Origin: Acidobacteriota bacterium
GTDB taxonomy: Bacteria; Actinomycetota; Acidimicrobiia; Acidimicrobiales; Ilumatobacteraceae
DNA length: 64,000 nucleotides
Direction of reading: 5' to 3'
Assembly (NCBI GenBank): GCA_018970175.1
Contig: JAGWWV010000001.1
Span: 29,605 to 93,604 of the forward strand
Positions 25,515 through 57,611 of the stretch are shown one piece after another; within the stretch, counting starts at the first letter, position 1; each line of letters begins with the position of its first letter. The notes beneath the pieces were generated by a model. That model was not told where the DNA came from. It saw nothing but the letters and a program-made list of their open reading frames with translations, and searched no databases. Position numbers and translations under genes: made by a program.

Positions 25515-26887
25515 AAACCGTCAATACCGTCAATACGGCGAAGCGAATCTGCGTCACGCTCTGCGCGGCGATTCTTGCTGCGTCGTGCAGTTCGAGCCAA
25601 CCCACCACCTCGGAGCCGACCACAACGACCGCACTCGACTGGACCTCGTGCAACGGCGTCGAGTGTGCCGACCTCGACGTGCCATTCGCCTACGACGATC
25701 CCTCGCGCGGTACGTTCACGCTGAAGGTCAGCCGGCAGCGGGCGTTGAAGGCCGATCAACGCGTCGGCGTGCTGATCGTCAATCCGGGAGGGCCCGGTGG
25801 ACCCGGTGTCTCGTTGGCCCAGAATGCCGCGTTCTACTTCAGCCGTGACATCATCGACCGATTCGATATCGTCGCCTGGGATCCTCGAGGTACGGGTGTG
25901 TCGACCCCCGCAGTTGATTGCATCGACAACTACGACGACTACTTCACACGGCCCCTCGATGCGCAGACGGCGCAACGCTTCGTCGACGCCTGCACCGAAC
26001 GCTCGGGCGACGTACTCCCCTACGTCGGGACCGCGAACTCGGCACGTGACATCGATGCCTTGCGGCGTGCACTGGGTGAAGAATCGGTCTCGTACTTTGG
26101 GTTCTCCTACGGCGGGGTTCTCGGTCTCACGTGGCAGGGCCTTTTCCCCGAGACCGTGCGCGCGATGGTTCTCGACGCACCGCCCAACCCGGCTGCCAGC
26201 CGGGCGGAACGCATCGCGGCACAGGCCACTGTGTTCGAGTCGCTCCTCGACGAGTTCCTCGAACCACCCGGACGGATGGATGCGTGGAACGCGGTGATGG
26301 CATCGCCCCCGACTGGTATCACCGCCCAGATGGTGCTCACCGCCACGATTTCGGCGCTCTACGACACCGAATCTTGGGGTGAACTTGAAACCGCGCTGAC
26401 CGCTGCCTCTGCAGGTGACGGCTCGAAGATCCGCGCAATGTACGAGGGCTTCTACTACCAGGACGCGGGATTCGAGGACTTGCGCAACACCTTCGAGGCG
26501 TCCGTCGCCATTTCATGCGTCGACGACACGACTCGCACACCCATCGATGACCTGACGAAAGTTGCACCGCGTCTCCATGTATTTTTTGGCCCCGATGAAT
26601 TGTGCTCGCGCTGGCCCGCCGCCACTTCCGAGTCGTACGACCCGCCCGCGGCAGGCGCGACCCCCACGGTGATCATCGGCGCAACGAAGGATCCCGCGTC
26701 ACCTTTCGCCGGCGTTCGGGCCACCGCAATGGCTTCCGGAAACACCCGATTGATCACCGTCGAAGGAAACCGACATACCAGCTACTTCGGGGTCGACTGC
26801 GTCACGGCGCTGGTCGATTCGTATCTCATCGGCCTCACCGATCCGGGTGACACCACCTGCCCGCCGGGGGCAAAAATCAGCGAATGA
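25508..26887 (+). CDS. exported alpha/beta hydrolase (TAP/tripeptidyl-aminopeptidase-like, S33-type)
   Basis: The lipobox is LAASC-S, followed by a T-rich linker, the nucleophile elbow GFSYGG and a TAP-like C-terminal region. The ATG overlaps the previous stop (ATGGTGA). Confidence 0.8.
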   Translation: MVKTVNTVNTAKRICVTLCAAILAASCSSSQPTTSEPTTTTALDWTSCNGVECADLDVPFAYDDPSRGTFTLKVSRQRALKADQRVGVLIVNPGGPGGPGVSLAQNAAFYFSRDIIDRFDIVAWDPRGTGVSTPAVDCIDNYDDYFTRPLDAQTAQRFVDACTERSGDVLPYVGTANSARDIDALRRALGEESVSYFGFSYGGVLGLTWQGLFPETVRAMVLDAPPNPAASRAERIAAQATVFESLLDEFLEPPGRMDAWNAVMASPPTGITAQMVLTATISALYDTESWGELETALTAASAGDGSKIRAMYEGFYYQDAGFEDLRNTFEASVAISCVDDTTRTPIDDLTKVAPRLHVFFGPDELCSRWPAATSESYDPPAAGATPTVIIGATKDPASPFAGVRATAMASGNTRLITVEGNRHTSYFGVDCVTALVDSYLIGLTDPGDTTCPPGAKISE

Positions 26888-43942: not shown

Positions 43943-46900
43943 TCACCGAATGCCGTAGCGACGACCGTCGTAGTCGACCCAGATGCTGGTCGGGTTGACC
44001 GAGAAGCCTAGGCCGAGGCTCACCCAGTTGGACCAGCCGGTCCAACCGTCGTTCCACCAACACTTCGGCTTCCAGGCACGACAACCCGCGTCGATGTAGT
44101 AGCGCGAACCCTGGACGCTGACCGTACCGCTCGCACTGAACGAGAAGTATGGCGACCAGCTGTAGATCCGCAGCGATGCATTGACGCTGGCCGACAGGCG
44201 CAGCTTCACGACAACGAGGTACACCTCGCCCGAGTTCCAGTTGAAGCCGGAGTTCACGGAGAAGTCGAAGCTACCGTTCGCGTTGATGTTGCCCGAGAAC
44301 CAGAAGCCGATACCTGCCGTCTCGAAGTAACCCGAGACGCTGAAGTACGTGCCACCGCGGTAACGCTGGCCGTTCCAGTAGGCGACGTTGCCCATCTTGA
44401 GGGTGCCGCCCGCGCGGACGATACCGAGCGAGACGCTGACACCGATGCTGGCGTCGAATGTGCCGTCGGCATTGATGGCGATCGAACCGCTACCCGAGAT
44501 ACCCGGCACCTGCAGCGACACCGACGCCGACATTCCTTCGCGGCCGGGCTCGTTCGAGATGGTGAACGAACCGCTCGCTGCGACACCGGCTGCCGACAAC
44601 GAGGCGTTGCCGGTCATGGTGAAGCGGAAGGCGTTGTTGGTGCGCGAGAAGTTGCCACTGAAGCCGACGTCAACCGCACCCAGAACTCGGATGTTGGTCG
44701 ACAGTGCGAAGGCCCAGTTGGCGCCCGACTTGCTTCCGCTCACGTTGACCGCGGCGGAGAATCCGACGAGATTCAGGTTGCCGCTGCCGGCAAAGCGGAA
44801 GTTGCCATCTGTGCCGAAGTCACCACTGACGCTGAGGTTGCCGCCGATGTTGCCCGATCCGATCGAGAACGAAGCGTTGAACCGTGCGTAGGCGACGCCG
44901 CTGGCGCGTCCCACCAGCACCGACCCGCTGGCACCGAAGCCACCGAGGTTGATGGTGATGTTGTCGGCCCCGACACGGAAGTCACCGGCTGCCGCCGTGA
45001 CGGTTTGTCCGTCACGGTTGACGATGGTGATACCCGATCCGGCCGCCCACACCACCTGACCGGTGAGCTGGGCGCTGAACACGCCGCCCACCGAGATGGT
45101 GCCGGTGATCTTGACCTGGTTCTTGTCGACGACACCGGTCACTCGACCGAAGTCGTAGCCGGCAACCGAGCCCGTCGCATCGAATGCGAGCGTCGGGAAC
45201 TGGCCGTCCTTGTAGTCGATCGAGAACGTGCCGTCGATCTTGACGACGCCCGCAATCGTTCGGACCGCCCGGACGTTGGCCTTCAAAGTCTGCAACTTGA
45301 AGTTCGACATCGACATCGCGAAGTCGACCTGCGTGACGGCACCGAGGAAGTTGAAGTCACCTCGTGCCTGGACCTCGGCGAAGCCATTCTTCGGTCGCAC
45401 GTTCACACGCACGGCCGCTGAACGGATCTCGAGGAAGCCCGGGACGATACTGAGGTTGTCGACGCTGCCCGTCAGGTCGACCCACGGTCCATCGGTGACG
45501 TTGTAACCGATGTTGCCGTTGACCGAGACCTTGGTGCTGCCGATCGTGATGCCACCGGCGAAGGCGACGAACGATTCGGTTGGCGACACCTTGATGGTGA
45601 GACGGGTCTCATCGACCTGAACACCACCAGCGCGGAACGCACCGATCGCCAGGCTGGCCTCGAGCGAGAACGGATTGGTTCCGATCTTCGCGCGAACATC
45701 GACCGGAGTGCCGAGAACGGTGCCAGAGAAACCGACCGAAATACCCGGGTCGAGGATCTGGTTGCCGATCTGGCAGCCGAGCGGCGCGATGGTGAGATCC
45801 ATGAACGTCGAGGTGAGAACCCCGCTGCCCACGTTGATGACCTTCGCCGAGCCTGCCGAGATGGTCTTGCCATCACCACCGAGCGTGCCCGCCTTGAACT
45901 GGAAGCACGGCTTCGTGACGTCGATGTTCGCCATCAGACGAACCGCGACACCGGCCTCCATGCCAAGCGGCTTCTTCCATGCGTCGGGCAACTGTGCCGT
46001 TGCCGCAATACCAATGGTCGGCAGCGGGAACGGAGTCGTTGCAAAGTTGATACCCACCTGAATGGCGGCGTCGGACAACGTGAGACCGCTGATACCGAAG
46101 GCGTTCTTCCACTCGTAGGGCTTGCCTGTCGTCGAGTCGATGCCGAGGCTGAGTGCCATCGAGATTGCGGTGGTCGAGACCGTGCCGCGCACCTCGAGCG
46201 GGATCGGGGTCTGACCCGAACCGGTGATGAACTCGATGTTGCCGATGAGGCTCATCGACGGAGTCGGGCTGCCACCGATCTCCACGCCGAATCCGGCGAA
46301 GCGCATCGAGAGCGAGCTCGTCTTGAAGAGGAACCAGTCACCCGGGGTCGGGAGCATGATCTTGAGCGTCGGCAGCTTGCCCGCTGCCAGGTCCTTCAGC
46401 GGCACCGTCACCGGCACCACATTGAGACTCGGTTGCTTGACCATGTCCTTCAGCCACTGCGGAACCTTGAAACCCGCGAGGAGCGTCGGGTTGTTGAGCG
46501 GAATGTCGACCTTGCCGAGGTTCGGCGCGTTCGGCAACGTCACCTGCAGCGCGTTGTAGGTCGCAAATGCGAACGACGCGTTGGTGAGTGTCGGGCCGCC
46601 GGGGATCGGCGTCCAGTCGTTCATGCCGCCCGAGACGATGACGCCCTGTGCGGAGAACGTTGCCGACATCGACAACGTCGTGCCGAGAACGTCGGCGCTG
46701 CCCGCGACACTGGCCGAGAGACCGCCCTGTGTTGCATAGGCAACCGCGAGGGTCGGGGCCTTGATCGTGACTCCTGCGGTGACCGGGAGATCGGCGAACA
46801 CCGCCTTCAGTTCCGACCTGTCCTTGGTGAACGTGCCGGTCAGTGTCGCAGGCGTTGTCCAGCCCTGTCCGACGTTGACCGAGACCCTGCCGGTGGCGGT

Positions 46901-49900
46901 GAAGACAAGTTCGCACTTGCCTCCAACCTGACATGTGGCCGTCACGGCCGCACCGGGCTCACTCACCCTGACGCCGGGTCCGGCAGCCGAACCGACCGGG
47001 AACCAGTCGGTGATGCCCTTGAAGGCGAGGCTGAAGGTGCGGGTCTGGTCCTTGCGAACCATCGTGCCGGTGAGGTTGCCGAGCGGCAGGCTGAATCCGG
47101 GGAACGGCGACCATGACGTCGTGCCGCCCGTCGGCTTCACCGTCACCTGGAACGAGTAGTCGGTGGACGACACGTAGTTCAGGTTGAAGCCCAAGACGAT
47201 CGGTGTCGTCGGAGTCGAGATCTCGATGTCACCCGTACCGGTTGCCTGAACGGAACCGGTGGTGTTGTTCAATTTGAGGTCGAGCGAGGCCACCTTCACA
47301 CCGTCGATGACGGTGAGTGGCTGCTTCACCTTGGCCGAGATGTCGTAGACGAGGTTCTTGCCCGTTCCTTCACGCGAGAATGTTCCGGTGATGTTGGTTG
47401 CGTTCGAGTCGTAGGTTGCCGTGAGCGAGAACGCTCCGCTGGCAAGGGTCATGTTGCCCTCGACCTTGACCGCACCGAAAGTGAGAGTGGTGCTTCCCGA
47501 CAGCTGCTTCACGACGTCGGGGGTCGGCATCGACAGCACGAGGCGTGGTGCGCCTGCGGGCAGGCTGATGGCCGGCAGCGACGGGAAGTTCGGAACCTTC
47601 GGCGTCCAGTTGATGTTGCTGGGCGCGCGCAGCGCCCAGGCGAACTGACCACCGTCGAAACCGATGTCGGAGTTCGGGAACTTGAACGACGGGAAATCGC
47701 CCGTGAGCAGGACGCCCGCCGAGCTGAAGTTGACGTTCGCATTCAGGGTCGCGCCGAAGAGCGCGAACGTGCCCGACAACGAAGCCGATGCACGGTCGGT
47801 GCTGGTCTTCGGCGGGATCGCCAAACTGAAGGTCGGTGCCAACAGCTTGATGTCGGCGTTGAACGCGAGGTCGTTGAACTTCGCAGAGAATGCAAAGCCC
47901 TTGTCGTCGAGTTTCCCGCTGATCTCCGCCGAGTTCAGACCCGTGATACCGAGGTCGAAGCCGAGCGTGCCCTTCAGGTCGAACGCCGGGACGCACTTGG
48001 CACCCGTGTTGCAGGTGACAGACGCCTTGGCCGACACGTTGGTGACACTCAGCCCGCTGACCGGCTTCCACGGACCAGCCGTCGACAAGTTGACGTCGAG
48101 GACGCTGCCTGCGGCGGTGCGCTTGAACGTACCGCTCGCCTGACCGAGGCTCAATGCCTCGCCACCGGTGACCGCAAACGACGGGGCCGTTGCTCCGGCC
48201 GACACGGTGACCGTGAAGTCGGTGGCCGAGTTGTAAGCAACCGCGCCGGCGACGGTGACGACCGTCGAATCGGGCAGCTTCACGTCAACCGAACCGTTGC
48301 CGGTGAGGGTGAGCGGGCCACCCGCCGTTGCGTTGCCGAAGGTGACGTCGAGCGTGGTGATCGACACCGAGTCGGTGAGGGCGATGGCCTTCTTCACCTT
48401 GCCGGTGAGGTTGTACTTGAACGGATCTCCGGTCTTCTCGCGGCTGATTGCACCCGCAAGGTCGATCGAATCGTTCGACAACGATGCAGCGAGGCTGAAC
48501 TTGCCGGTCGAGAAGTCGACTTCGCCGTCGAGGGCGATGTCACCGACATTGCTGACCGTTGCCGAAGCGAGACCCTTGATCTGCTCGGGCAGTGCGATTG
48601 CCATGTTGAGACGCGGCACCTTGGGTGTGAGGTTGACGGACTTGATGTTCGGCAACGACGGCACCTTCGGTGTGATCGAGATCGGACCCGACGACCAGCT
48701 GAGCTGACCCGGCTTCCAGACCGGACCGCTTGCGCCGAACGGCGCGAGCTCCGGCAGATCGGCGGTCAGCAACACGCCGGTCTTCGAGAACGTGGCCGAA
48801 GCACTGACGGTCTTTTCGAACACGGTCATCGAACCCGCCAACGTGACGGTGGTCGCCGCGTTGGCTGCACCGATGTTGGTGGAATCGATCGAGAGCGACG
48901 CCGAGGTGATGTCGAGACCCGCGACGAGCGGAATCTTGTCGAGCGACGCCTTCAGCGAAGCGGTCTTGTTCGTGATGTCGACCGCGCCGGTGATCTTGCC
49001 GGTTGTCGAAGTTGAACCAAGGGTCACTTCCGCACCCGAGTCGAGGTTGACCTTCACATCGCAGGCACCCGTGGCCGGGCATTGTGCAGTCGCCTTGATG
49101 GTGGGTGCAACGAACTTGAGACCCGAGAACGGCGAGACATCGCCACCAACGACGGTGACGTCGATTGTCTTCGCGCCGTCCTTGGCAACGTACGAACCCG
49201 ACGCGCTGGCGAGCGGGATGGAGATGTCCTTGCCCGGGCTCCACTTCCCACCCGTTGTCGCGGCCTTCACCGCGAACGAATGGTTGTTGGCATCGGTGTA
49301 GTTGAGATCGGCAGTCACCGCGAGTGCGGTGTCCCCGGAACCAATGGTCATCGTGCCGGAGCCGGTGATTGCACCACCCTTGTCGTACGACGCCGACAAT
49401 GCCGTGATCTTCACGTTCGACGTGAGGGCGATTTCACCCTGGAGTGCGCCTGCAAGGCTCACCGCAACGTCGGCCTCGGGAGTTTCACGCTTCACCGAAC
49501 CGGTGAAGTCGATCGTCGAACCAAAGAGTTCGAACCCATTGGCGAGCGATGCGTCGAGGGAGAACGTGCCGTTCGTGGCGACTGCACCCGCAATGCGGGC
49601 CGTCGGCTTCTTGCCGTTCTTCTCGGGACCGGTTGCAGTTGCCTCGAGGCTGACGGCCTTGCCACCCTCGGCATCAACGCTGAAGGTCAGCGTCGCTGCG
49701 GGTGTCCAGCCAGCGGGCAGCTTGAGGAACGGCATCGAGCCGGATTCGATCTTGCCTTCGAAGGCGCCGATGGCGACCGACGCACGCGAGAACGGGATGA
49801 AGAGACCGACGGGGTCGGTTCCACCGATCGAGAACACGGGTGAACCCCACGACTCGGGTCCGGTGAATGTCGCCGAGCGGATGGTGAGACCCGCGGCACT

Positions 49901-52900
49901 GATCGTGCCACTGGCACCTGACACGGTGAGATAACCAGCGAGCGAGAACCCGGCGTTCGAGAACGACACCTTCGAGCTCTCCGAACACGTCGAGGAGTTC
50001 ACCTTGAGCTGTGACAGATCAAGATTGCCGATACCGATCGCCTTGTAGGTCGCTTCGAGCTTGGAAGAGGTGTTCGTCGAGATTGCCTCGACGAAGTCAC
50101 ACAACGGAGTTGGTGCACCGCTCGGGTTCATCTGCAGTGTGATCTGGTCGGTCGCACTGGCGCCGGTGGCGTCGGTGGCGGTGACCAAGATGACCGCGGT
50201 GCCGATTGCAGCCGACGCCGCAATCGAGAGCGCTGCAGTGTTTGCGCCGTTCAGCGTGAGAGCAGGACCCGACACCTGTGACCAGGCGTAGGTAATGGCA
50301 CCCGAACCAGTGGCGGTTGCGTTCAGTGCAACTGCTTTCGCCGTGTCGACCGCCAATGGACCTTCGCCCTCGGCGATGTTCGCCGACAACGTGGCAGCGC
50401 CACCGGTGCCGACAACGACGGTGACGACGTCGGTTGCCTTCTCACCGCGCGAGTCGGTGGCAACCACACGGAGGCTGATGGTCGTGTTCGCGGCGGGTGC
50501 GGTGAATGCAACCGTCGCGGTGTTCGTGGCTGCTGCTGCAAGCACCGACGGTGTCGGACCTGCGGCCTGCGACCATGCGTAGGTGACGGCGCCCACGCCC
50601 GAAGCCGCAGCAGTAACCGACACCGCGGCACCTTGCGCGACGGTGAGTGTGGAACCACCGAAGATGTTGCCGTTGACGGTGACGCCGGCGTTGGCCGACG
50701 TCAGAACGGAGGTGTCACCCGCGCCGGATGTGGGCGCGGTAGCAGCGAATGCGCGAACGCTCGGCCCCGACTGCTTCGGCACGCGACGCAGCACGGACGA
50801 ACCGCTACCGCTTCCGGCCTTACCGGTCGGACCCTGCGCGGTCGGCAATGGCTGGACGCGCACGGAGAAGCGTGCGGTGTGCGAGGTTCCGGCCTCGTCG
50901 AGTGCCGTTGCTTCGAATACCAGCGTCTCTTCGGCCTTCACCGCGGGTGCGAGCAGGTTCGCCGTGGGGCCCGTGGACGGGGCGTCGTTGACCCACTTGG
51001 CCGCTGACGTGACGGCCTTGCACTGTCCGTTCGACGCCTTCACATCGGCGTCGGTGGTGCAGAGCTGGCGCCACGTGAACTTCGAGCCATCGGCGTTGCC
51101 AACGGTCGTGAGAAGAATCGACGAGGGCATGCGCTTGCCCGTTGCGTCGACGATCTGGTCGACGATGACGTCGGGTCCCTGGATCGAGAACGACAGGGGT
51201 GCGCGCAGGTCGATTTCCTGCGTCGAGGTTTGGCTGGTTGGCTGGCCGTAGATGTTCGAGACGATCGACGTCGCCTGCAGCACCATCTTCTTTGCCTTGG
51301 GGTCACTCGACTGGTAGTCGACGGCGACGGCCTTCGACACTTCGCCGACCTTCAACGGCAGCTTGCGCGAGCAGGCGATGAACCCCTCGGCGATGAATCC
51401 GCCGACAACTGCACAGCTCCAACCCTCACCCTTGGCACCGGTCAAGCGACCGCCCTTGGTCTTGATGATCATCGACTGGGCGTTGGAGTCGGCCGTGCCT
51501 TCGTTCTTCACGCTGAACTGCGCGGCGGCCTTGCCACCCGGACGTGGTCCTGCGGGTGCGGCGATCGCTGCGGTGAGTGCGGGTTGCTGCTTGACGATGG
51601 TGATGCCCATGCCGTAGCGCGCGACCGGAGCGGTCTTCACCGTGGGCAGTGACGCGTACACCGGCCACTCGGGCTTGCCCGGCTTGGCCGAATTTGCGGC
51701 CTCGACCGTGAGGTTGAGAATCGGTGTCTGGGCCTCGGGGGCAACGGCTGCTGCGAGAGTCAGCTCGCAACGAATCGCTGCACCCTTCTTGCCCGGTGTG
51801 GCAACGGGAGCCGGAGCGGCGATGGCTTCACCCGCGCCCGCGAGGGACTCGGGCAACTGCACCACGGGGGGCGTGCCCTGACCTGCAACGCAGGCCCACT
51901 GGCCCGGTGTTGCAGGGATCTTCTTTCCATCGAGATCACCCTTGAAGTCGGCGTCCTTCGGTGCCGACTTGCCCGAGAAGATCGCGAAATCGGAAACGAA
52001 CTGTTCGAGGCGAACGACGGTTCCCGCCGCGATCGGAACTGCGCCGAGGTTCGACACTGCAAGGCCGTAGCTCGCCTTCTTGCCGACGACGATCTCGGTC
52101 GTCGAGCCATCGCTGACCGCCTGGGTTGCACCCTTCTCATCGGCGCGCGTGAAGACGATGCCGGGCATGGCGGCCGGAGCAGGCTGCACGAGCAGCGTCT
52201 GACCGGAGCGGTTGTTCTCGACCTTCGCTGCATCTTCGTTCTCGGCGGAGATGACGCTGATGACCTGGGCCGCGCCCGTTTCTGTTTCCTCGGTCGTCGT
52301 GAACTTGAAGGCAATCGTCTCTTCGGCGGTGTCGAACAGTTCGGCCTTCACGCACTTGAGCGCGGTCGAACCCTCGCCTGCGGCGGGGTCGGCGGCGGCA
52401 GAAGCACAGGTCCAGCCGGGTGATCCGTCGGCTGCCTTCTCCATCGTGACGCCCTTGCGGACACCGACGGTGACGGCGACGTTCTGGCCGATGCCGTTGA
52501 TCGAACGCACCTTCGCGTCGACGAGCAGAGTGCCGGGTGCGACCATGCTGGTCTTGCCGTCACGGGCGATGACCTTCGCCACGAGATCGGGCTTCGGCGC
52601 CTCGTTGATCTGCGACGTGAGCTCGGCGAGAGCCTCGAGCTGCGTGCCATCGGCCTTCACGCGGCTGACCGAGTTGACCTTCCACGTGAACGGCTGGGCC
52701 GTCACTGCTGCGGTTTTCGACGTGCGGCCTTCGATGATGAGGGGCTCACTGAAGAAACTCGGCTGAATTTCGCCGCCGGTGCGCGTGCAGCGCTTCGGCG
52801 CGGCGGGGTCGTCGCAGGTCCAGCCGTTGCCCGAGATCTTCACATCGGTGAGGCCGATCTGTGCGGGAAGGATGTCGGTGAAAGTGATGTCACCCGAAAA

Positions 52901-53920
52901 GGCCTGATCGCACACCGGAAGGGTGCGCAGGACGATCTTGAATCGACCACCGGGGTAGGTGTTGCCGGACGGTTCACCATCGACATAGACACATGAACTA
53001 CGACGAGTGTCGTCGGCGGCGCTGGTGCCCGCGTTGCTACGCGGTGCACCGAGAACTGCAAGTGCGAACTCGTCGTTCTCCGGGGCGACGTCACCCGCGA
53101 GTGACGCGCGGACGAGGAAGTGCGGCACGGTGCGCGACAGCGCCTGGATGCCGGCGATGTCGCGCTTCTCCGCGAGGTCGTTGCTCTTGGTCGTGTACGC
53201 ATCGTCCGCGACGAAGAGCTCCGCATCTGGTGCGTAGTTCACGCGCAGATCGGCGCGCACGACACCCGCAACGGGGATGATGCCGCTCGAGATTCCCGCA
53301 TCGGTCTTCTGCTTGAGCGTGCACGATGTCGCGTTGCACTCCCAGCCCTGGTCGCCAATGGCCGACTTGTCGTTCAATGTGGGCAGGACTTCGAGCACCT
53401 TGACGCCACGCGGCAACTTGGCGAGCGAGAACGAGACGGGTGCCTCGATACCGGCAGCCACATTACCCATGTTCGACAAACGAACGATGACGACCGCATT
53501 GAGGTCGGTCGTGACGACGCTGGTTTGGTTGGCGGAAGCCATGATGTCGGGACCCGACTTCGTGTTGCCGGCGGTTGCGGGCGGCAGCGTCGAGGCGGGT
53601 GCGGTTGTGGCGGGCACCAAGTCGACGTTGTCGGGCTTGGCGTCGCTCGGCAACGGTGCGAGCAACGTGTTGTCGAGACCCGGAATGGTGGTGGGCACGG
53701 CAGTATCGGTTGCAGCGGGTGCGGCAGCACCCGGGACCGTCGTCGTGGTGGCATCACCGGAAGCGGGCGCACCCGTGGTGGTGGTCGCCTCGGCTGCCGG
53801 AGCAGCGGTGGTCGTCGTCGGATCGTTCGGGCTGCTGGCGCCGACCGGGGTGATGTCGACGATCGCGATGCTGATCGCGGCCGTTGCCAATGCAAATTTC
53901 TTGAAGCTATTCATGCTCAT
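43943..53920 (-). CDS. giant exported protein of unknown function (~3325 aa)
   Basis: This is an uninterrupted ORF. The ATG at 53920 overlaps the upstream stop (ATGA) and opens MSMNSFKKFALATAAISIAIV..PVGA, a signal peptide (the ORF track starts 3 codons earlier, at 53929).
Regions in order:
- a T/A/P-rich linker;
- several DUF11/CARDB-like beta-sandwich patterns;
- two PKD-like units (xxTYAWSQxxGP);
- three ~355-aa modules;
- a ~770-aa Gly/Ser/Asn/Phe-rich beta-type tail ending in a Trp-rich segment. Confidence 0.85.
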   Translation of the reverse strand: MSMNSFKKFALATAAISIAIVDITPVGASSPNDPTTTTAAPAAEATTTTGAPASGDATTTTVPGAAAPAATDTAVPTTIPGLDNTLLAPLPSDAKPDNVDLVPATTAPASTLPPATAGNTKSGPDIMASANQTSVVTTDLNAVVIVRLSNMGNVAAGIEAPVSFSLAKLPRGVKVLEVLPTLNDKSAIGDQGWECNATSCTLKQKTDAGISSGIIPVAGVVRADLRVNYAPDAELFVADDAYTTKSNDLAEKRDIAGIQALSRTVPHFLVRASLAGDVAPENDEFALAVLGAPRSNAGTSAADDTRRSSCVYVDGEPSGNTYPGGRFKIVLRTLPVCDQAFSGDITFTDILPAQIGLTDVKISGNGWTCDDPAAPKRCTRTGGEIQPSFFSEPLIIEGRTSKTAAVTAQPFTWKVNSVSRVKADGTQLEALAELTSQINEAPKPDLVAKVIARDGKTSMVAPGTLLVDAKVRSINGIGQNVAVTVGVRKGVTMEKAADGSPGWTCASAAADPAAGEGSTALKCVKAELFDTAEETIAFKFTTTEETETGAAQVISVISAENEDAAKVENNRSGQTLLVQPAPAAMPGIVFTRADEKGATQAVSDGSTTEIVVGKKASYGLAVSNLGAVPIAAGTVVRLEQFVSDFAIFSGKSAPKDADFKGDLDGKKIPATPGQWACVAGQGTPPVVQLPESLAGAGEAIAAPAPVATPGKKGAAIRCELTLAAAVAPEAQTPILNLTVEAANSAKPGKPEWPVYASLPTVKTAPVARYGMGITIVKQQPALTAAIAAPAGPRPGGKAAAQFSVKNEGTADSNAQSMIIKTKGGRLTGAKGEGWSCAVVGGFIAEGFIACSRKLPLKVGEVSKAVAVDYQSSDPKAKKMVLQATSIVSNIYGQPTSQTSTQEIDLRAPLSFSIQGPDVIVDQIVDATGKRMPSSILLTTVGNADGSKFTWRQLCTTDADVKASNGQCKAVTSAAKWVNDAPSTGPTANLLAPAVKAEETLVFEATALDEAGTSHTARFSVRVQPLPTAQGPTGKAGSGSGSSVLRRVPKQSGPSVRAFAATAPTSGAGDTSVLTSANAGVTVNGNIFGGSTLTVAQGAAVSVTAAASGVGAVTYAWSQAAGPTPSVLAAAATNTATVAFTAPAANTTISLRVVATDSRGEKATDVVTVVVGTGGAATLSANIAEGEGPLAVDTAKAVALNATATGSGAITYAWSQVSGPALTLNGANTAALSIAASAAIGTAVILVTATDATGASATDQITLQMNPSGAPTPLCDFVEAISTNTSSKLEATYKAIGIGNLDLSQLKVNSSTCSESSKVSFSNAGFSLAGYLTVSGASGTISAAGLTIRSATFTGPESWGSPVFSIGGTDPVGLFIPFSRASVAIGAFEGKIESGSMPFLKLPAGWTPAATLTFSVDAEGGKAVSLEATATGPEKNGKKPTARIAGAVATNGTFSLDASLANGFELFGSTIDFTGSVKRETPEADVAVSLAGALQGEIALTSNVKITALSASYDKGGAITGSGTMTIGSGDTALAVTADLNYTDANNHSFAVKAATTGGKWSPGKDISIPLASASGSYVAKDGAKTIDVTVVGGDVSPFSGLKFVAPTIKATAQCPATGACDVKVNLDSGAEVTLGSTSTTGKITGAVDITNKTASLKASLDKIPLVAGLDITSASLSIDSTNIGAANAATTVTLAGSMTVFEKTVSASATFSKTGVLLTADLPELAPFGASGPVWKPGQLSWSSGPISITPKVPSLPNIKSVNLTPKVPRLNMAIALPEQIKGLASATVSNVGDIALDGEVDFSTGKFSLAASLSNDSIDLAGAISREKTGDPFKYNLTGKVKKAIALTDSVSITTLDVTFGNATAGGPLTLTGNGSVDVKLPDSTVVTVAGAVAYNSATDFTVTVSAGATAPSFAVTGGEALSLGQASGTFKRTAAGSVLDVNLSTAGPWKPVSGLSVTNVSAKASVTCNTGAKCVPAFDLKGTLGFDLGITGLNSAEISGKLDDKGFAFSAKFNDLAFNADIKLLAPTFSLAIPPKTSTDRASASLSGTFALFGATLNANVNFSSAGVLLTGDFPSFKFPNSDIGFDGGQFAWALRAPSNINWTPKVPNFPSLPAISLPAGAPRLVLSMPTPDVVKQLSGSTTLTFGAVKVEGNMTLASGAFSLTATYDSNATNITGTFSREGTGKNLVYDISAKVKQPLTVIDGVKVASLDLKLNNTTGSVQATGTGDIEISTPTTPIVLGFNLNYVSSTDYSFQVTVKPTGGTTSWSPFPGFSLPLGNLTGTMVRKDQTRTFSLAFKGITDWFPVGSAAGPGVRVSEPGAAVTATCQVGGKCELVFTATGRVSVNVGQGWTTPATLTGTFTKDRSELKAVFADLPVTAGVTIKAPTLAVAYATQGGLSASVAGSADVLGTTLSMSATFSAQGVIVSGGMNDWTPIPGGPTLTNASFAFATYNALQVTLPNAPNLGKVDIPLNNPTLLAGFKVPQWLKDMVKQPSLNVVPVTVPLKDLAAGKLPTLKIMLPTPGDWFLFKTSSLSMRFAGFGVEIGGSPTPSMSLIGNIEFITGSGQTPIPLEVRGTVSTTAISMALSLGIDSTTGKPYEWKNAFGISGLTLSDAAIQVGINFATTPFPLPTIGIAATAQLPDAWKKPLGMEAGVAVRLMANIDVTKPCFQFKAGTLGGDGKTISAGSAKVINVGSGVLTSTFMDLTIAPLGCQIGNQILDPGISVGFSGTVLGTPVDVRAKIGTNPFSLEASLAIGAFRAGGVQVDETRLTIKVSPTESFVAFAGGITIGSTKVSVNGNIGYNVTDGPWVDLTGSVDNLSIVPGFLEIRSAAVRVNVRPKNGFAEVQARGDFNFLGAVTQVDFAMSMSNFKLQTLKANVRAVRTIAGVVKIDGTFSIDYKDGQFPTLAFDATGSVAGYDFGRVTGVVDKNQVKITGTISVGGVFSAQLTGQVVWAAGSGITIVNRDGQTVTAAAGDFRVGADNITINLGGFGASGSVLVGRASGVAYARFNASFSIGSGNIGGNLSVSGDFGTDGNFRFAGSGNLNLVGFSAAVNVSGSKSGANWAFALSTNIRVLGAVDVGFSGNFSRTNNAFRFTMTGNASLSAAGVAASGSFTISNEPGREGMSASVSLQVPGISGSGSIAINADGTFDASIGVSVSLGIVRAGGTLKMGNVAYWNGQRYRGGTYFSVSGYFETAGIGFWFSGNINANGSFDFSVNSGFNWNSGEVYLVVVKLRLSASVNASLRIYSWSPYFSFSASGTVSVQGSRYYIDAGCRAWKPKCWWNDGWTGWSNWVSLGLGFSVNPTSIWVDYDGRRYGIR
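46250..49440 (-). repeat. three divergent tandem ~355-aa protein modules inside the giant CDS
   Basis: Several landmarks recur at a period of ~1065 nt:
- NVKITALSASY / SVSITTLDVTF / GVKVASLDLKL;
- a C-x-x-G-x-x-C loop (CPATGAC near 49075, CNTGAKC near 48005, CQVGGKC near 46922);
- SMTVFEKTVSASATFSKTGVLLT / SGTFALFGATLNANVNFSSAGVLLT / SADVLGTTLSMSATFSAQGVIVS. Confidence 0.75.
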
Positions 53921-54990
53921 TTCGCACATCCTGTCGAAGCGAAGCCGGTGAGAGCCCGGGCGTCACCCGAGCTCGCAAAAACTGGACGGTAAGTGGGCGT
54001 GGCGAAAGCCACCCGATCGATTGCGGCGCGTTGGCGCACGAGGCTCGCGGTTTCGGCCGTCGCGCCCTTCAGCAACTTGGCTGCATCCGCGAGGAGAATC
54101 TTCGGGCCGCCGTTCTGGAGCGCCGACGTGCAGTTGGCCACCGACCAGATTTGGTTCTTCCAACGCAGTTCGCCGATACCCAGTTCGACGTTGCGGCAGG
54201 TGGCCGCGGTGTCACCCGAACAGCCGAGCGCCCAGTCGCGGATTGCGTTGCCGGTCTTTTGCGCCTCGGCACTTGCGGGGTCACCGATGAGGACTTCGAA
54301 GCCCCAACCGCTGCCCTGGTACTGCCCGACTCCGACCGCAGTCGCATCGAGGCCCCGGACTCCGGTGATCCCCGAGCCGGGAAGGGTTGCCGCGAGCAGG
54401 GCCTTCACCACTTTCTTTGCGGTGGGCGAAAGGAAGGCGCAGTTGTCGCACGGTTTGCCGTTGACCGTCCAACGAAGCGTGAGCGGAGTGGCAGTACCCG
54501 ACCATTCGGCCGCAGTGACGTTGAGAATGCCGTCGGCGTCGGCGCGGTACGTGGTGCCGACTGCCTTGGCCGCGTTTGTCGTGATCGATGCCTCGGCGGG
54601 AAGTGCGGGGCGCGGAGAGCCGAGCGGGTCAGTGGTTGCGAGATACGTCGCCTGGTAGCCGCCCGGGTCCTTCACTTTGGTGACTTCGGGAACCGTCACC
54701 TCGGGTGCAGCAGTTGTTGCAGGTGACGCAGTGGTCTCTGTCGTCGCGGCTGCGGTGGTTGCCGGCGCAGTAGTCGTTGTCGGAGCAACGGTTGTTGCGG
54801 GTGCCGTTGTTGTCTCGGTTGTCGCCACCGCAGTTGTCGTGGGTAGCGCGGCGTTCTTCACGCGCGTCGATGCGGTTGTGTCATTCGACGACGAGTCGGA
54901 TGACCCGCCGCACGAAGCCAACACGACCATGGCCGCGATGACCCCGGTCAAGAACGATCGTTTCCTCATGATTGATGTACCTCTCATCAT
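53917..54990 (-). CDS. exported lipoprotein of unknown function
   Basis: The lipobox is VVLASC-GGSS, followed by a ~75-aa T/A/P-rich linker containing ASTRVKNAALPTTT and a ~250-aa Cys-containing globular region. The ATG overlaps the upstream stop (ATGA). An alternative start is at 54969 (MRKRSF). Confidence 0.7.
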   Translation of the reverse strand: MMRGTSIMRKRSFLTGVIAAMVVLASCGGSSDSSSNDTTASTRVKNAALPTTTAVATTETTTAPATTVAPTTTTAPATTAAATTETTASPATTAAPEVTVPEVTKVKDPGGYQATYLATTDPLGSPRPALPAEASITTNAAKAVGTTYRADADGILNVTAAEWSGTATPLTLRWTVNGKPCDNCAFLSPTAKKVVKALLAATLPGSGITGVRGLDATAVGVGQYQGSGWGFEVLIGDPASAEAQKTGNAIRDWALGCSGDTAATCRNVELGIGELRWKNQIWSVANCTSALQNGGPKILLADAAKLLKGATAETASLVRQRAAIDRVAFATPTYRPVFASSGDARALTGFASTGCAK

Positions 54991-55505
54991 TTCCCGGGCT
55001 CACAGTTCGCCTTCACCCACGTCTGCACGTTGGCGGACGCGGTGTTGGCATCGGATGTTGCGAATTGTTCGATCAGCGAGTTGAACTTGTCCAAAGTCGG
55101 GTCGCCGGAAATTGCCTCGGCCATTCCGCGCGCTGCGGTGGCAACCGCATCGGCATCGGCCTTCACATCGCTCGGTGCGACCGCTGCCATCTCTTCGAGT
55201 GCCGTGGCATTCGCCGACAACTTCTCGGCGATCGCGGCGGGGTCGTCGTCGGCTGCGATGTCGGCGCCGCCCTGGTTGTCGAGTGCCGACTTGCAGAACT
55301 CTTCAACCGACCCCGTTGCTGCTGCAGCAGCGGTGTCGGTTGTTTCACCTTCTGCGTCGGCTGCAACCTCGGTGGTGTCGGCAGTCGATTCATCGTTCGA
55401 TGACGAGTCGGAACCACCGCATGCACCCATCGCAAACGCACCGACGATGCACACAGCAAAAAATTTTCCCCTCGCACGACGAACGCTCACCGCTGCCCCC
55501 TTCAA
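54987..55505 (-). CDS. small exported lipoprotein of unknown function
   Basis: The lipobox is FAMGAC-GGSD, followed by an acidic T/A/D/E linker and a ~100-aa helical-looking region. The GTG at 55490, preceded by GAAGGGGG, may be the real start instead of the TTG at 55505. Confidence 0.65.
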   Translation of the reverse strand: MKGAAVSVRRARGKFFAVCIVGAFAMGACGGSDSSSNDESTADTTEVAADAEGETTDTAAAAATGSVEEFCKSALDNQGGADIAADDDPAAIAEKLSANATALEEMAAVAPSDVKADADAVATAARGMAEAISGDPTLDKFNSLIEQFATSDANTASANVQTWVKANCEPGK

Positions 55506-55626: not shown

Positions 55627-56160
55627 TCAGCCCGCGAGGGCGGTCAAACGTCCCGCGACTTCGGACGCCGAGGGGGCCCCGAGCACAAGTTCACGAGAGC
55701 CATCGGCACCCTGGAACACCCATGCCGGCTGGCCCGACACGCCGAAAGAGGCGAAAATCGACCCGTCCGGGTCGCGCACGTTGGTGAAGGTCAGGCCGTG
55801 GCGCGACACAAAGTCGTCGATTTCGTCCTCGCTGCCGTTCCAGCCGACACCGACAACCGTGACCTTCCCGGCCCACTTCTTGCTTGCCGCCTCGACCGAG
55901 GGGGCTTCGCTGTTGCAGGTGCCTCAATAAGGCGCCCAGAACCAGAAGGCGACGGGTGACCCGTTGTACCGCGACCCGAAGTCGCCGGACGGTGGCGTGA
56001 CCGTCTCCGGCGTCGCTGCTGGCATTGTCGAATCCACGGTCGACGCGGACGCGTTGGCACTCGTCGCGACGACTGCTGCGTCACTCGGTTGCGTGGCGTC
56101 CTCGGCACAGCCCGCTACCAGAGCGCATGCGAGAAGCGCGACACCGATCGGACGTTTCAT
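55627..56160 (-). CDS. MPT53/DsbE/TlpA-like thioredoxin-fold lipoprotein with an in-frame TGA at the first CxxC position (candidate selenoprotein, or pseudogene)
   Basis: The ATG at 56160 overlaps the gatB stop (ATGA), and the lipobox is LVAGC-A. Hand translation across 55926..55924 (TGA) stays in frame with no further stop: ...VAFWFWAPY-TGA-GTCNSEAPSVEAASKKWAGKVTVVGVGWNGSEDEIDDFVSRHGLTFTNVRDPDGSIFASFGVSGQPAWVFQGADGS.... This is the TlpA/MPT53 layout, where WxWxPWCxxCxxEAP is expected. Confidence 0.55.
55886..55905 (-). promoter_or_regulatory. SECIS-like hairpin downstream of the in-frame TGA
   Basis: The mRNA sequence GCC-C-CCUC[GGUC]GAGG-C-GGC starts 19 nt after the UGA. It forms 3+4 bp with one C-C mismatch. 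Its apical loop GGUC matches the loop sequence I recall for the E. coli fdhF SECIS. Confidence 0.3.
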
Positions 56161-57611
56161 GATCCGCGGCGCTCTTGCAACATCGCCGTGACGACCTTGC
56201 CGTCGGCTTTCCCCTTGCTCGCCTTCATGATGGCGCCGACCAGCGCACCGGCAGCTTTCTCTTCGCCGGCGCAGTACTTGGCCCACGCATCGGGTTGCGC
56301 GGCTATTGCATCGTCGACGAAGGTCGCGATCGATGACGTGTCGAGCGCTTCGAAGCCCTTCGATGCCGCTATTGCGACGGGGTCTCCTCCGCCGTTCGCG
56401 AGCATCTCGCCGAGAACGGTCTTTGCCTGCGTCGCAGTGATCTTGCCTTCGCGTTCCATCACGGTGAGTGCGGCGAGGTCCTTTGCCGGAAGGCGCGGGG
56501 ACTCTCCTTCTTCGGCGAACGACTGTTGAACCCACACGAGTGCGCGCCCTGCTTCACCGCCCGCGTCGACGACCGACTTCACGTACGGGTCCTGGCCGCG
56601 TTCGACAACGACCGACACCGCTTCGCCTTCGACGTCGGCGCCGGTGAGTGCAGCGAGCAACGCGCGACGTGCCGCGGGTAACGCCGGCAGGGCCGAGCGA
56701 ACGCGCTCGACCCATGCAGCATCGGGAGCGAGCGGCACGAGGTCGGGTTCGAGGAAGTAGCGGTAGTCGTCGGCATCTTCCTTGGTGCGAAGCGTGTGGG
56801 TGCGACCCTCGGCGTCGTCCCAGTGGCGCGTCTCTTGACGAATACTCCCGCCGGTTTCGAGGATGTCGACTTGCCTGCGAGCTTCGTACTCGATTGCGCG
56901 ACCAAGCGACCGCACCGAGTTCACGTTCTTGATTTCGCAGCGAGTGCCGAGCGGATCACCGAAACGGCGAACCGACACGTTCGCGTCGCAACGCATCGAC
57001 CCTTCTTCCATCTTCGCGTCGCTCGCACCGATGGCCACGAGGATCGCGCGGAGTTCACTCACGTACTGCTTGGCCTGCTCGGCAGTACGAATGTCGGGGC
57101 GGGAGACGATCTCAACCAGCGGCACGCCTGCACGATTGAAGTCGATGAGCGAGTACTCGCTGCCGTGAATACGACCGCCGGCACCACCGAAGTGGGTCGA
57201 CTTTCCGGTGTCCTCTTCGAGGTGGGCCCGTTCGACCTCGACCCGAACGTTGCCGGGCAACATGAGATACCCATCGACGTTCAACGGCTGGTCGTACTGG
57301 CTGATCTGGTAGGCCTTCGGCAGGTCGGGATAGAAATAGTTCTTCCGGTGAAACGTGCAGGGTTGAACGCTGCAGTTGAGTGCGAGCCCGATTCGCATCG
57401 CCAACTCGACGGCGTGTTCGTTCAGAACCGGCAGGGCACCAGGGAGACCCAGGGTGACGGGGTCGATGTTCGTGTTGGGTTCGTCGCCGAAACGATTCGG
57501 GGATGCGCTGAAGAGTTTCGTCTTCGTTGCCAATTCGACGTGGACCTCGAGACCAACGACAAGTTCCCATCCGTCGGGCAGCCCGTTCTGAAACTTCGAT
57601 GAATCGCTCAT
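56157..57611 (-). CDS. gatB: Asp-tRNA(Asn)/Glu-tRNA(Gln) amidotransferase subunit B
   Basis: The 484-aa product has VVGLEVHVEL, NRAGVPLVEIV and CDANVSVR, and its C-terminal YqeY-like tail is typical of GatB. The ATGA overlaps the gatA stop. Confidence 0.95.
   Translation of the reverse strand: MSDSSKFQNGLPDGWELVVGLEVHVELATKTKLFSASPNRFGDEPNTNIDPVTLGLPGALPVLNEHAVELAMRIGLALNCSVQPCTFHRKNYFYPDLPKAYQISQYDQPLNVDGYLMLPGNVRVEVERAHLEEDTGKSTHFGGAGGRIHGSEYSLIDFNRAGVPLVEIVSRPDIRTAEQAKQYVSELRAILVAIGASDAKMEEGSMRCDANVSVRRFGDPLGTRCEIKNVNSVRSLGRAIEYEARRQVDILETGGSIRQETRHWDDAEGRTHTLRTKEDADDYRYFLEPDLVPLAPDAAWVERVRSALPALPAARRALLAALTGADVEGEAVSVVVERGQDPYVKSVVDAGGEAGRALVWVQQSFAEEGESPRLPAKDLAALTVMEREGKITATQAKTVLGEMLANGGGDPVAIAASKGFEALDTSSIATFVDDAIAAQPDAWAKYCAGEEKAAGALVGAIMKASKGKADGKVVTAMLQERRGS

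What the first reader, a model, noticed from the sequence alone, without database searches (positions are those of the whole stretch)
55627..56160. In-frame TGA replaces the first Cys of the CxxC motif in an MPT53/DsbE-like thioredoxin-fold lipoprotein: candidate selenoprotein with a SECIS-like hairpin
The ORF track splits this gene into 55924-56535 and 55627-55809, but both pieces are in the same frame. My hand translation of 55810-55923 shows no other stop.

Reading through gives FWFWAPY-[TGA]-GTCNSEAPSVEAASKKW...FVSRHGLTFTNVRDPDGSIFASFGVSGQPAWVFQGADGS. From memory, this aligns residue for residue with mycobacterial MPT53-type DsbE proteins (WFWTPWCPFCNAEAPS...FTNLNDADG...QPAFVF). That places the TGA (55926-55924) exactly at the redox-active first cysteine, giving UxxC.

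Selenocysteine substituting for the catalytic Cys of thioredoxin-fold proteins is the classic selenoprotein signature. Nineteen nt downstream, the mRNA can fold into GCC-C-CCUC[GGUC]GAGG-C-GGC (55905-55886). Its GGUC apical loop lies about 27-30 nt after the UGA, within the range described for bacterial SECIS elements.

The null hypotheses are a sequencing error or a recent nonsense mutation, because TGA is one third-position change from TGC/TGT.
Basis: partly seen in the sequence, partly recalled or inferred. Interest (0 to 1): 0.75.

Follow-up and report, generated by a model that had tools for sequence, protein, structure and literature searches.

The report
Selenocysteine lipoprotein disulfide oxidoreductase gene
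The "broken" gene is an intact gene for a membrane-anchored thioredoxin-fold enzyme whose catalytic cysteine is replaced by selenocysteine, encoded by a UGA that a conserved RNA hairpin recodes. It belongs to a selenoprotein family first reported in 2005, but public annotation still cuts it in two.

Summary

- **Gene.** Window 56160-55627 (- strand) is one 177-residue reading frame with a single in-frame TGA at 55926-55924. That TGA sits at the first Cys of the CxxC motif, giving U-G-T-C.
- **Closest structures.** The best solved-structure matches are M. tuberculosis MPT53/DsbE and DsbF (E about 1e-22).
- **Conservation of the TGA.** All 160 related loci I fetched carry TGA at this codon. They come from MAGs and metagenomes, mostly labelled Ilumatobacteraceae or Acidimicrobiales. 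Protein-level conservation runs in frame on both sides of the TGA.
- **Hairpin.** CCUC[GGUC]GAGG lies 26 nt after the UGA. Its nucleotides are essentially invariant across 131 unique genes, while other conserved codons vary freely at synonymous sites. One relative and two distant Sargasso Sea homologues show compensatory stem changes with the GGUC loop kept. E. coli fdhF SECIS has the same GGUC loop.
- **Alternatives excluded.** TGA is the commonest ordinary stop codon in the window. A Cys-form orthologue exists.
- **Not shown.** No selA, selB, selC or selD was found in the DNA available to me.
- **Prior knowledge.** The family is the "thiol-disulfide isomerase-like" UxxC selenoprotein of Zhang et al. 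2005. This gene is a new member, annotated in GenBank only as a 78-aa hypothetical protein.

The parts
55627..56160 (-). Complete selenoprotein gene: 177 residues plus stop, with Sec at residue 79. It encodes a lipoprotein thiol-disulfide oxidoreductase of the TlpA/DsbE-DsbF type.
   Evidence: One frame with a single internal TGA. Pfam AhpC-TSA/Redoxin/Thioredoxin. Best PDB matches are MPT53 1LU4 and DsbF 3IOS. GenBank holds only the 78-aa N-terminal piece, as a hypothetical protein.
56107..56160 (-). Lipoprotein signal peptide with lipobox V-A-G-C (Cys18). A low-complexity linker of about 40 residues follows.
   Evidence: Read directly from the sequence. A basic, hydrophobic, lipobox-Cys N-terminus is present in at least 111 of 125 unique orthologue N-termini by a strict rule. 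By eye, nearly all the rest have one too.
55924..55926 (-). UGA codon read as selenocysteine (U79), the first and nucleophilic position of the U-G-T-C redox motif.
   Evidence: TGA in 156 of 156 motif-bearing loci and in the 4 variant loci. It aligns with the first Cys of CxxC in MPT53 and DsbF and with TGC in the Cys-form orthologue P0002.
55915..55917 (-). Resolving cysteine C82 of the UxxC motif.
   Evidence: Invariant in the protein alignment. TGC/TGT vary synonymously, 108 to 23.
55886..55905 (-). SECIS-type hairpin GCC-C-CCUC[GGUC]GAGG-C-GGC inside the coding sequence (codons A-P-S-V-E-A-A).
   Evidence: The 20-nt hairpin has MFE -9.9 kcal/mol. 94.6% of cells are paired, against 25-60% for slid controls, and pair 24-39 co-varies. 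Compensatory changes appear at pairs 27-36 and 28-35 in L061 and the Sargasso Sea homologues.
55894..55897 (-). Apical tetraloop GGUC, 26 nt after the UGA. This is the predicted SelB contact.
   Evidence: Invariant in 131 of 131 unique genes (TCG and GTC codons, entropy 0) and in both Sargasso Sea homologues. The loop is identical to that of the E. coli fdhF SECIS read from NC_000913. It meets the bSECIS model.
55633..55980 (-). Thioredoxin-fold catalytic domain (residues about 61-176), including the QPA cis-proline loop (P145 at 55726-55728).
   Evidence: phmmer alignment to 1LU4 and 3IOS over residues 42/61-176. An AlphaFold model of the Cys orthologue has pLDDT above 90 over the domain. Foldseek top hits are 1LU4 and 3IOS, with target-normalised TM-score (TMt) 0.86 and 0.90. 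Q144, P145 and A146 are invariant.
56157..57611 (-). gatB, immediately upstream. Its TGA stop overlaps the selenoprotein start (ATGA), so the two are probably co-transcribed.
   Evidence: named GatB in GenBank. gatB lies directly upstream in 29 related loci, but other clades have a different neighbourhood.

Best explanation
This is an intact selenoprotein gene. Ribosomes that reach UGA79 do not terminate. A SelB-Sec-tRNA(Sec) complex docks on the GGUC-capped hairpin 26 nt downstream and inserts selenocysteine.

The product is exported and lipid-anchored through its lipobox Cys18. It carries a disordered linker and a TlpA/DsbE-DsbF-type thioredoxin fold. In its active site U79-G-T-C82, the selenolate is the exposed nucleophile and forms a selenenylsulfide with C82 during thiol-disulfide exchange with envelope proteins.

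Shown here:
- the conserved in-frame UGA at the catalytic Cys position
- coding on both sides of it
- a hairpin under RNA-level selection with covariation
- the fold and the lipobox

Inferred:
- that the inserted residue is Sec, because the Sec machinery was not seen
- SelB binding to the hairpin
- the direction of catalysis (oxidase like M. tuberculosis DsbE/DsbF, or reductase like ResA/TlpA) and the redox partner
For: 1. TGA occupies the codon in all 160 fetched relatives. The retrieval patterns lie downstream of the codon, so they did not select for TGA.

2. Both flanks are coding. The conserved residues P, A, F, P upstream and C, N, G, V, H, T, F, D, Q, P, A downstream show normalised synonymous codon entropy of 0.65-1.0.

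3. Five codons are the exception: E18 0.16, P20 0.03, S21 0, V22 0, E23 0.06. Together they spell the hairpin.

4. Structure counts: 94.6% paired against 25-60% for slid controls, and 0 of 500 shuffles reach the observed covariation.
   - L061 has CCU...GAA, a C-G to U-A change.
   - L009 and L096 change the peptide to AAASVE yet extend the stem.
   - P-to-T variants alter only the unpaired base.
   - Two Sargasso Sea homologues have different stems (CUGC/GCAG and GCGGC/GCCGC) around the same GGUC loop at the same distance.

5. The hairpin meets every criterion of the published bacterial SECIS model: a 3-9 nt loop, G in the first two loop positions followed by G or U, a 16-37 nt spacing (26 here), and MFE at or below -7.5 kcal/mol (-9.9 here). 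E. coli fdhF has the same GGUC loop.

6. Cysteine homologues align at the UGA: P0002 (TGC), MPT53 and DsbF.

7. TGA is an ordinary stop in this genome. It ends 16 of 30 crude gene calls, including gatB and gatA.

8. There is no conserved restart codon after the TGA. The first in-frame ATG, GTG or TTG lies anywhere from codon +1 to +84.

9. The protein is homologous to published UxxC selenoproteins, at E=5e-26 and 8e-23, with U aligned.

10. Sec machinery is reported throughout Actinomarina genomes (order Actinomarinales), the sister order within the same class (preprint 10.64898/2026.04.03.716425).
Against: No tRNA-Sec, selA, selB or selD was found in the 64-kb window or in 1.4 Mb of related flanks.

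No Rfam family matches the region.

In this single sequence the fold energy is not better than shuffled controls.

The upper stem has only 4 bp, the minimum the model allows. The lower stem is imperfect in about a quarter of sequences (28 of 108 unpaired at pair 24-39).

The Cys-form orthologue keeps the same hairpin, so it cannot serve as a hairpin-free control.

There are no experimental data.
Confidence: 0.9

Rival explanations
1. Pseudogene or assembly error: a TGC/TGT-to-TGA change that inactivates a DsbE-like gene in this MAG.
For: TGA is one substitution away from TGC/TGT. GenBank annotates only a 78-aa hypothetical protein. A Cys-form orthologue exists.
Against: The same TGA occurs in 160 of 160 independent loci from different samples and species at 40-80% protein identity. 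Purifying selection acts on the downstream frame, and no second stop or frameshift is present.
Confidence: 0.01
2. Site-specific UGA recoding that inserts something other than selenocysteine. One route is Cys delivered by a tRNA(Sec)-like tRNA together with SelB. Another is hairpin-stimulated near-cognate read-through that inserts Trp.
For: The Sec machinery was not observed here. One JGI gene call (P0001) shows W at this position. The Cys form works with the same hairpin in place.
Against: The position is the catalytic nucleophile of a CxxC fold, where Trp would abolish activity. The hairpin matches the SelB-type SECIS model and the fdhF loop. Published homologues are classed as selenoproteins.
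Confidence: 0.06
3. Translation really stops at UGA79 and yields a 78-residue lipopeptide. The conserved hairpin would then be a regulatory or terminator-like element, and the downstream domain would be made separately or not at all.
For: Gene callers predict separate N- and C-terminal pieces. By general knowledge of bacterial Sec decoding, some termination is expected to compete with insertion.
Against: There is no conserved start codon or fixed restart position after the TGA. A separately made C-terminal piece would lack the signal peptide, strand beta-1 and the nucleophile, and in 129 of 131 genes the resolving Cys as well. The two pieces are always in the same frame.
Confidence: 0.03

Closest known systems
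"Thiol-disulfide isomerase-like protein" selenoprotein family (UxxC; Zhang, Fomenko & Gladyshev 2005, Genome Biol 6:R37, PMC1088965; listed under cd02966 in the 2026 review PMC13188914)
   Same: Two of the four published sequences are clear homologues, with U aligned to U79: AACY01075364 (MWFWSPNuGQCRAEASAV, BLASTP E=5e-26) and AACY01523057 (WFWAPWuGGCNREAAAV, E=8e-23). Both have a GGUC-looped hairpin at the same distance from the UGA.
   Different: The 2005 sequences are marine fragments at 32-45% identity with different stem sequences. The present clade has a frozen EAPSVE/CCUC-GGUC-GAGG element and a lipoprotein N-terminus, and most of its members here come from lake and river MAGs labelled Ilumatobacteraceae or Acidimicrobiales. 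The other two 2005 'family' members (DFETDWuTWC type) look unrelated to this gene.
Mycobacterium tuberculosis DsbE (MPT53, Rv2878c; PDB 1LU4) and DsbF (Rv1677; PDB 3IOS)
   Same: These are the closest solved structures by sequence (E=1.6e-22 and 2.7e-22) and by predicted fold (TMt 0.86 and 0.90, rmsd 1.6 and 1.2 A). They share WFWxPWCxxCxxEAP, the QPA cis-Pro loop and an extracytoplasmic location. From my own knowledge, both act as oxidases rather than reductants and DsbF is a lipoprotein.
   Different: They use Cys-x-x-Cys and carry no UGA or SECIS. The redox properties of a Sec-x-x-Cys site are untested.
E. coli fdhF SECIS element
   Same: A coding-region hairpin just 3' of the UGA with an identical GGUC apical tetraloop (read from NC_000913). 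From my own knowledge, the G and U of that loop contact SelB.
   Different: The loop starts at nt 22 in fdhF and at nt 30 here. The fdhF stem is longer with a bulged U, whereas here there are 4 bp, a 1x1 mismatch and about 3 bp. No Rfam model covers either form.
Other thioredoxin-fold UxxC selenoproteins: Prx-like thiol:disulfide oxidoreductase (PF00578), thiol:disulfide interchange protein (PF13098), Redoxin family protein (PF08534)
   Same: The same logic applies: Sec replaces the first Cys of CxxC in an AhpC-TSA/Redoxin-type domain.
   Different: They are catalogued as separate families. I could not compare sequences because their accessions are not retrievable with these tools.

Membership tests
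Bacterial selenoprotein gene (Sec-UGA plus SECIS) | In-frame UGA conserved among orthologues, with protein-coding conservation on both sides | tested here: met
   TGA in 160 of 160 loci. Synonymous variation at conserved residues on both flanks.
Bacterial selenoprotein gene (Sec-UGA plus SECIS) | Cysteine-containing homologues align at the UGA position | tested here: met
   P0002 has TGC. The first CxxC Cys of MPT53 and DsbF aligns with it.
Bacterial selenoprotein gene (Sec-UGA plus SECIS) | Downstream hairpin fitting the bSECIS model: 3-9 nt loop with G in its first two positions, upper stem of at least 4 bp, 16-37 nt spacing, MFE at or below -7.5 kcal/mol | tested here: met
   GGUC loop, 4-bp upper stem plus 3-bp lower stem, 26-nt spacing, -9.9 kcal/mol. 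87 of 108 orthologue hairpins are at or below -7.5 kcal/mol.
Bacterial selenoprotein gene (Sec-UGA plus SECIS) | Hairpin under RNA-level selection (covariation or suppressed synonymous change) | tested here: met
   Codon entropy 0-0.16 in the hairpin against 0.65-1.0 elsewhere. Compensatory pairs.
Bacterial selenoprotein gene (Sec-UGA plus SECIS) | selA, selB, selC (tRNA-Sec) and selD present in the same genome | not testable with these tools
   None found in the window or in 1.4 Mb of related flanks. Only class-level support from the Actinomarina preprint.
Bacterial selenoprotein gene (Sec-UGA plus SECIS) | Selenium shown in the protein (75Se labelling or mass spectrometry) | not testable with these tools
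   Requires experiment.
Thiol-disulfide isomerase-like UxxC selenoprotein family (Zhang et al. 2005) | Sequence homology to published members, with U in the same column | tested here: met
   BLASTP E=5e-26 and 8e-23 to AACY01075364 and AACY01523057, with U/C aligned.
TlpA-like / DsbE-DsbF thioredoxin-fold oxidoreductases (cd02966 type) | Thioredoxin fold with a CxxC-type motif at the N-terminus of helix 1 and a cis-Pro loop | tested here: met
   Pfam Redoxin/AhpC-TSA/Thioredoxin. NCBIfam ResA and DsbE matches fall below their cut-offs. PDB 1LU4 and 3IOS alignments include UxxC and QPA. Predicted fold.
TlpA-like / DsbE-DsbF thioredoxin-fold oxidoreductases (cd02966 type) | Extracytoplasmic location (signal peptide or membrane anchor) | tested here: met
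   Lipobox VAGC in the window. At least 111 of 125 orthologue N-termini pass a strict lipobox rule. Rule-based only; no dedicated predictor was available.
TlpA-like / DsbE-DsbF thioredoxin-fold oxidoreductases (cd02966 type) | Defined redox role and partner: oxidase with VKOR/DsbB, or reductase with CcdA/DsbD | tested here: inconclusive
   No CcdA-, DsbD- or VKOR-like gene lies in the conserved neighbourhoods. Neighbours are gatCAB in one clade and lpdA/E2/lipB, trkA and a permease in others.

The most novel reading that the evidence does not exclude
A whole radiation of aquatic Acidimicrobiales, mostly Ilumatobacteraceae, depends on selenium for envelope thiol-disulfide chemistry. Relatives of the gene turn up in 359 stretches scanned across species-representative genomes, and all 160 loci fetched from genomes and metagenomes carry UGA. 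Under this reading the selenolipoprotein is the lineage's main extracytoplasmic oxidoreductase and may be re-oxidised without a dedicated DsbB/VKOR-type partner. The SECIS would then have frozen six residues of the active-site helix (EAPSVE) across the clade. None of this has been noted before, because every MAG annotation splits the gene.
Probability: 0.2. Interest if true: 0.55.

Novelty: new member of a known kind. Interest (0 to 1): 0.35.

Why it matters
The finding corrects an annotation error that recurs in public databases. The window's gene is deposited as a 78-aa hypothetical protein. At least 17 relatives are deposited as 97-100-aa C-terminal fragments named "redoxin", "TlpA family" or "peroxiredoxin".

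It implies that a widespread aquatic actinobacterial lineage decodes selenocysteine. That points to a selenium requirement for its cell-envelope redox chemistry.

It also gives an unusually clean natural example of an RNA signal constraining a protein sequence. More than 100 species-level variants share one SECIS, which could serve to define SelB specificity in Actinomycetota and to train selenoprotein gene finders.

It does not reveal a new mechanism or a new selenoprotein family.

Tried and rejected
- **Rfam.** A gathering-threshold scan of the window and a permissive scan of 55780-55980 gave no SECIS family, only chance hits.
- **tRNA-Sec.** ARAGORN found no tRNA in the window. It found only 4 tRNAs, none Sec, in 1.4 Mb of related loci.
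- **Sec enzymes.** tblastn with E. coli SelA, SelB and SelD against the window and all loci gave no hits.
- **SelA protein search.** Searching the protein database with E. coli SelA, hoping for Ilumatobacteraceae-labelled SelA, listed only Enterobacterales among the 120 rows shown. It was useless for the lineage question.
- **Extending the window.** The look-up of encoding contigs on the edge genes returned only short Logan contigs.
- **Other selenoprotein genes.** I scanned all held DNA for an in-frame TGA followed by a GGUC-looped hairpin of at least 4 bp. The 26 non-TlpA candidates all look like off-frame Arg/Pro/Ser-rich ORFs, so I rejected them.
- **Cys-form control.** I used P0002 as a hairpin-free control, but it keeps the hairpin, so it is either a recent Sec-to-Cys conversion or an uninformative case.
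- **DNA of P0001.** This protein has W at the Sec position.
- **Gene neighbourhood.** It gives no redox partner and is not conserved across clades.
- **Literature.** Searches for selenocysteine with Ilumatobacter or Acidimicrobiia found only the Actinomarina preprint as relevant.

Full report
**1.

On the - strand, 56160-55627 is one reading frame of 177 codons plus a stop, with a single internal stop: TGA at 55926-55924. The ORF lister splits it into 55924-56535 and 55627-55809, and both pieces are in the same frame.

The true start is the ATG at 56160, which overlaps the TGA stop of gatB (ATGA). It opens a lipoprotein-type signal, MKRPIGVALLACALVAGC. The context of the internal stop is FWFWAPY-[TGA]-GTCNSEAPSVE.

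Pfam assigns residues 42-146 to AhpC-TSA, Redoxin and Thioredoxin. NCBIfam gives only sub-threshold ResA and DsbE matches.

**2. The remembered resemblance to MPT53 is correct**

Against all PDB sequences, the two best matches are M. tuberculosis MPT53/DsbE (1LU4, E=1.6e-22) and DsbF (3IOS, E=2.7e-22). The alignments run from residue 42 or 61 to 176. They place the TGA on the first Cys of lwfwtpwCpfCnaeaps (MPT53) and wfwapwCptCqgeap (DsbF). The QPA cis-proline loop also aligns.

An AlphaFold model of the Cys-form orthologue P0002 has pLDDT above 90 throughout the domain. Its best structural matches are again 1LU4 and 3IOS (TMt 0.86 and 0.90, rmsd 1.6 and 1.2 A), followed by ResA.

**3. It is not an error or a recent nonsense mutation**

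A protein search returned 22 relatives. Seventeen are 97-100-residue fragments that begin exactly at xTCN or xCN, just after the codon in question, which is what a gene caller produces when it stops at an internal TGA.

I then fetched DNA for 80 loci from species-representative genomes and 80 from metagenomes. The search used peptide patterns that lie downstream of the codon (CNxEAPSVE and HGLTF...), so it could not select for TGA. The genome loci are MAGs, mostly labelled Ilumatobacteraceae, Acidimicrobiales or Actinomycetota, and 359 scanned stretches in that collection encode a relative.

All 156 loci with the CNxEAPS motif have TGA at the U-x-x-C position. So do the four loci with variant peptides. 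Protein identity to the window ranges from about 40% to 82%.

**4. Both sides of the TGA are translated in one frame**

I built a codon alignment of 131 unique genes. Conserved residues upstream (P, A, F, A, P) and downstream (T, C, N, G, V, H, L, T, F, D, Q, P, A and others) use their synonymous codons freely. Normalised codon entropy is 0.65-1.0. This is the signature of selection on the protein.

There is no conserved restart codon. The first in-frame ATG, GTG or TTG after the TGA lies anywhere between codon +1 and +84. TGA is otherwise the commonest ordinary stop in the window, ending 16 of 30 crude gene calls including gatB and gatA. The genetic code has therefore not been reassigned.

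**5. The hairpin is under RNA-level selection**

In this sequence alone the fold is unremarkable (z=-0.39 against shuffles). The comparative signal is strong.

Five consecutive conserved codons have almost no synonymous variation:
- GAA: 126 of 129
- CCC: 126 of 127
- TCG: 131 of 131, from a six-fold degenerate serine
- GTC: 131 of 131
- GAG: 130 of 131

Their entropies are 0.16, 0.03, 0, 0 and 0.06. Together they spell CCUC[GGUC]GAGG.

| Sequence | Change | Effect on the hairpin |
|---|---|---|
| L061 (the one exception) | CCU...GAA | Compensatory C-G to U-A |
| P-to-T variants | Peptide EATSVE | Alters only the unpaired C |
| L009, L096 | Peptide AAASVE | Turns the mismatch into a fifth base pair |

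On 108 distinct sequences, 94.6% of cells are paired, against 25-60% when partners are slid by 1-3 columns. No shuffle out of 500 reaches the observed covariation. Pair 24-39 shows CG, GC, AU, UA, UG and GU.

**6. Distant homologues supply the decisive covariation**

The supplement of Zhang et al. 2005 (PMC1088965) contains two Sargasso Sea genes that are homologous to the window protein, with U in the same column:
- AACY01075364, MWFWSPNuGQCRAEASAV..., BLASTP E=5e-26
- AACY01523057, ...WFWAPWuGGCNREAAAV..., BLASTP E=8e-23

.

Their DNA has the GGUC loop at exactly nt 30-33 after the UGA, but with different stems: UCUGC/GCAGA and (A)GCGGC/GCCGC(U). Pairs 27-36 (CG, UA, GC) and 28-35 (UA, GC) therefore change on both sides while pairing is kept.

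**7. The hairpin fits what is known about bacterial SECIS elements**

| Model criterion (PMC13188914) | Value here |
|---|---|
| Apical loop of 3-9 nt | GGUC, 4 nt |
| G in the first two loop positions, usually followed by G or U | G-G-U |
| Upper stem of at least 4 bp | 4 bp, then a 1x1 mismatch and 3 bp |
| 16-37 nt between UGA and the loop | 26 nt |
| MFE at or below -7.5 kcal/mol | -9.9 kcal/mol |

The E. coli fdhF SECIS, read directly from NC_000913, has the same GGUC tetraloop, GCA[GGUC]UGC, starting at nt 22. No Rfam model matches, which is expected because bacterial SECIS elements are poorly covered there.

**8. What remains unshown**

I could not run it on this genome.
- The window has no tRNA.
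- 1.4 Mb of related flanks hold no tRNA-Sec and no SelA, SelB or SelD homologue.
- A database search with E. coli SelA listed only Enterobacterales.

The only lineage-level support is a 2026 preprint. It reports selC, selA, selD and a divergent selB in all 84 complete Actinomarina genomes, which belong to the sister order within class Acidimicrobiia. So the identity of the inserted residue is inferred, not shown.

**9. Likely function**

The lipobox and an Ala/Ser/Thr/Pro-rich linker are conserved. At least 111 of 125 unique N-termini pass a strict rule, and by eye nearly all the others have a lipobox too. The median distance from the lipobox Cys to Sec is 56 residues. The catalytic domain is therefore tethered outside the membrane.

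By homology with DsbE/DsbF and ResA/TlpA, it should exchange disulfides with envelope proteins. U79 would be the attacking selenolate and C82 the resolving thiol.

Whether it oxidises or reduces its substrates cannot be decided. No CcdA/DsbD- or VKOR-type gene is nearby. The neighbourhood is gatCAB in the window's clade (29 loci) and lpdA, E2, lipB, trkA and a permease in other clades.

**10. Comparison with what is known, and novelty**

UxxC selenoproteins with thioredoxin folds are a long-established class. [quoted passage not shown] The 2026 review catalogues it under cd02966. The window gene is therefore a new member of a known kind.

What my analysis adds:
- the breadth of the clade
- the near-absolute conservation of one SECIS
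- the lipoprotein architecture
- the systematic mis-annotation

On the last point, GenBank holds the window's gene as MBU6240215.1, a 78-aa hypothetical protein in a MAG labelled "Acidobacteria bacterium". Relatives are deposited as approximately 98-aa "redoxin" or "TlpA family" fragments.

**11. Verdict**

My confidence that this is a genuine Sec-decoding gene is about 0.9. Interest is modest (0.35), because both the mechanism and the family are already known.

Noticed in passing
window 26877-40262 (-) and 43943-53929 (-): Two giant ORFs lie downstream of the selenoprotein gene on the same strand. The 4461-aa ORF has RCC1-like repeats, Big_2, Laminin_G_3, PA14/GLEYA and Lcl_C domains. The 3328-aa ORF has only PKD-like domains. 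Both are probably huge surface proteins.
   Followed up: partly
window 54987-55505 (-) and 53917-54990 (-): Two further lipoprotein-like ORFs (172 and 357 aa, with signal peptides ending ...GACGGSDSSSND and ...LASCGGSSDSSSND) sit directly downstream of the selenoprotein gene. Neither has a Pfam match. They are conserved in 22 and 40 related loci respectively.
   Followed up: partly
whole window (source record of MBU6240215.1 / MBU6240216.1, contig 121,359 bp): The source MAG is labelled "Acidobacteria bacterium". Yet every close relative of the selenoprotein gene, and of gatB next to it, is labelled Ilumatobacteraceae, Acidimicrobiales or Actinomycetota. Several related MAGs are implausibly labelled Bifidobacterium. 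The taxonomy labels are probably wrong.
   Followed up: no
L161:4308-4841 (protein P0002): This Cys-form orthologue (TGC in place of TGA, from a contig of 51% GC) keeps the exact SECIS hairpin nucleotides GAA GCA CCC TCG GTC GAG. It looks like a recent Sec-to-Cys conversion with a fossil SECIS.
   Followed up: partly
protein P0001 (JGI sample 3300067032, contig of 1158 bp): This full-length gene call has Trp at the Sec position (FWFWAPTWSTCN). It is either a real TGG variant or a TGA translated under genetic code 4.
   Followed up: partly
window 56157-56160 and related loci: The selenoprotein start codon overlaps the gatB stop (ATGA), which suggests translational coupling to the gatCAB operon. 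This arrangement holds in 29 loci. In other clades the gene sits next to divergently transcribed lpdA, E2 and lipB genes.
   Followed up: partly
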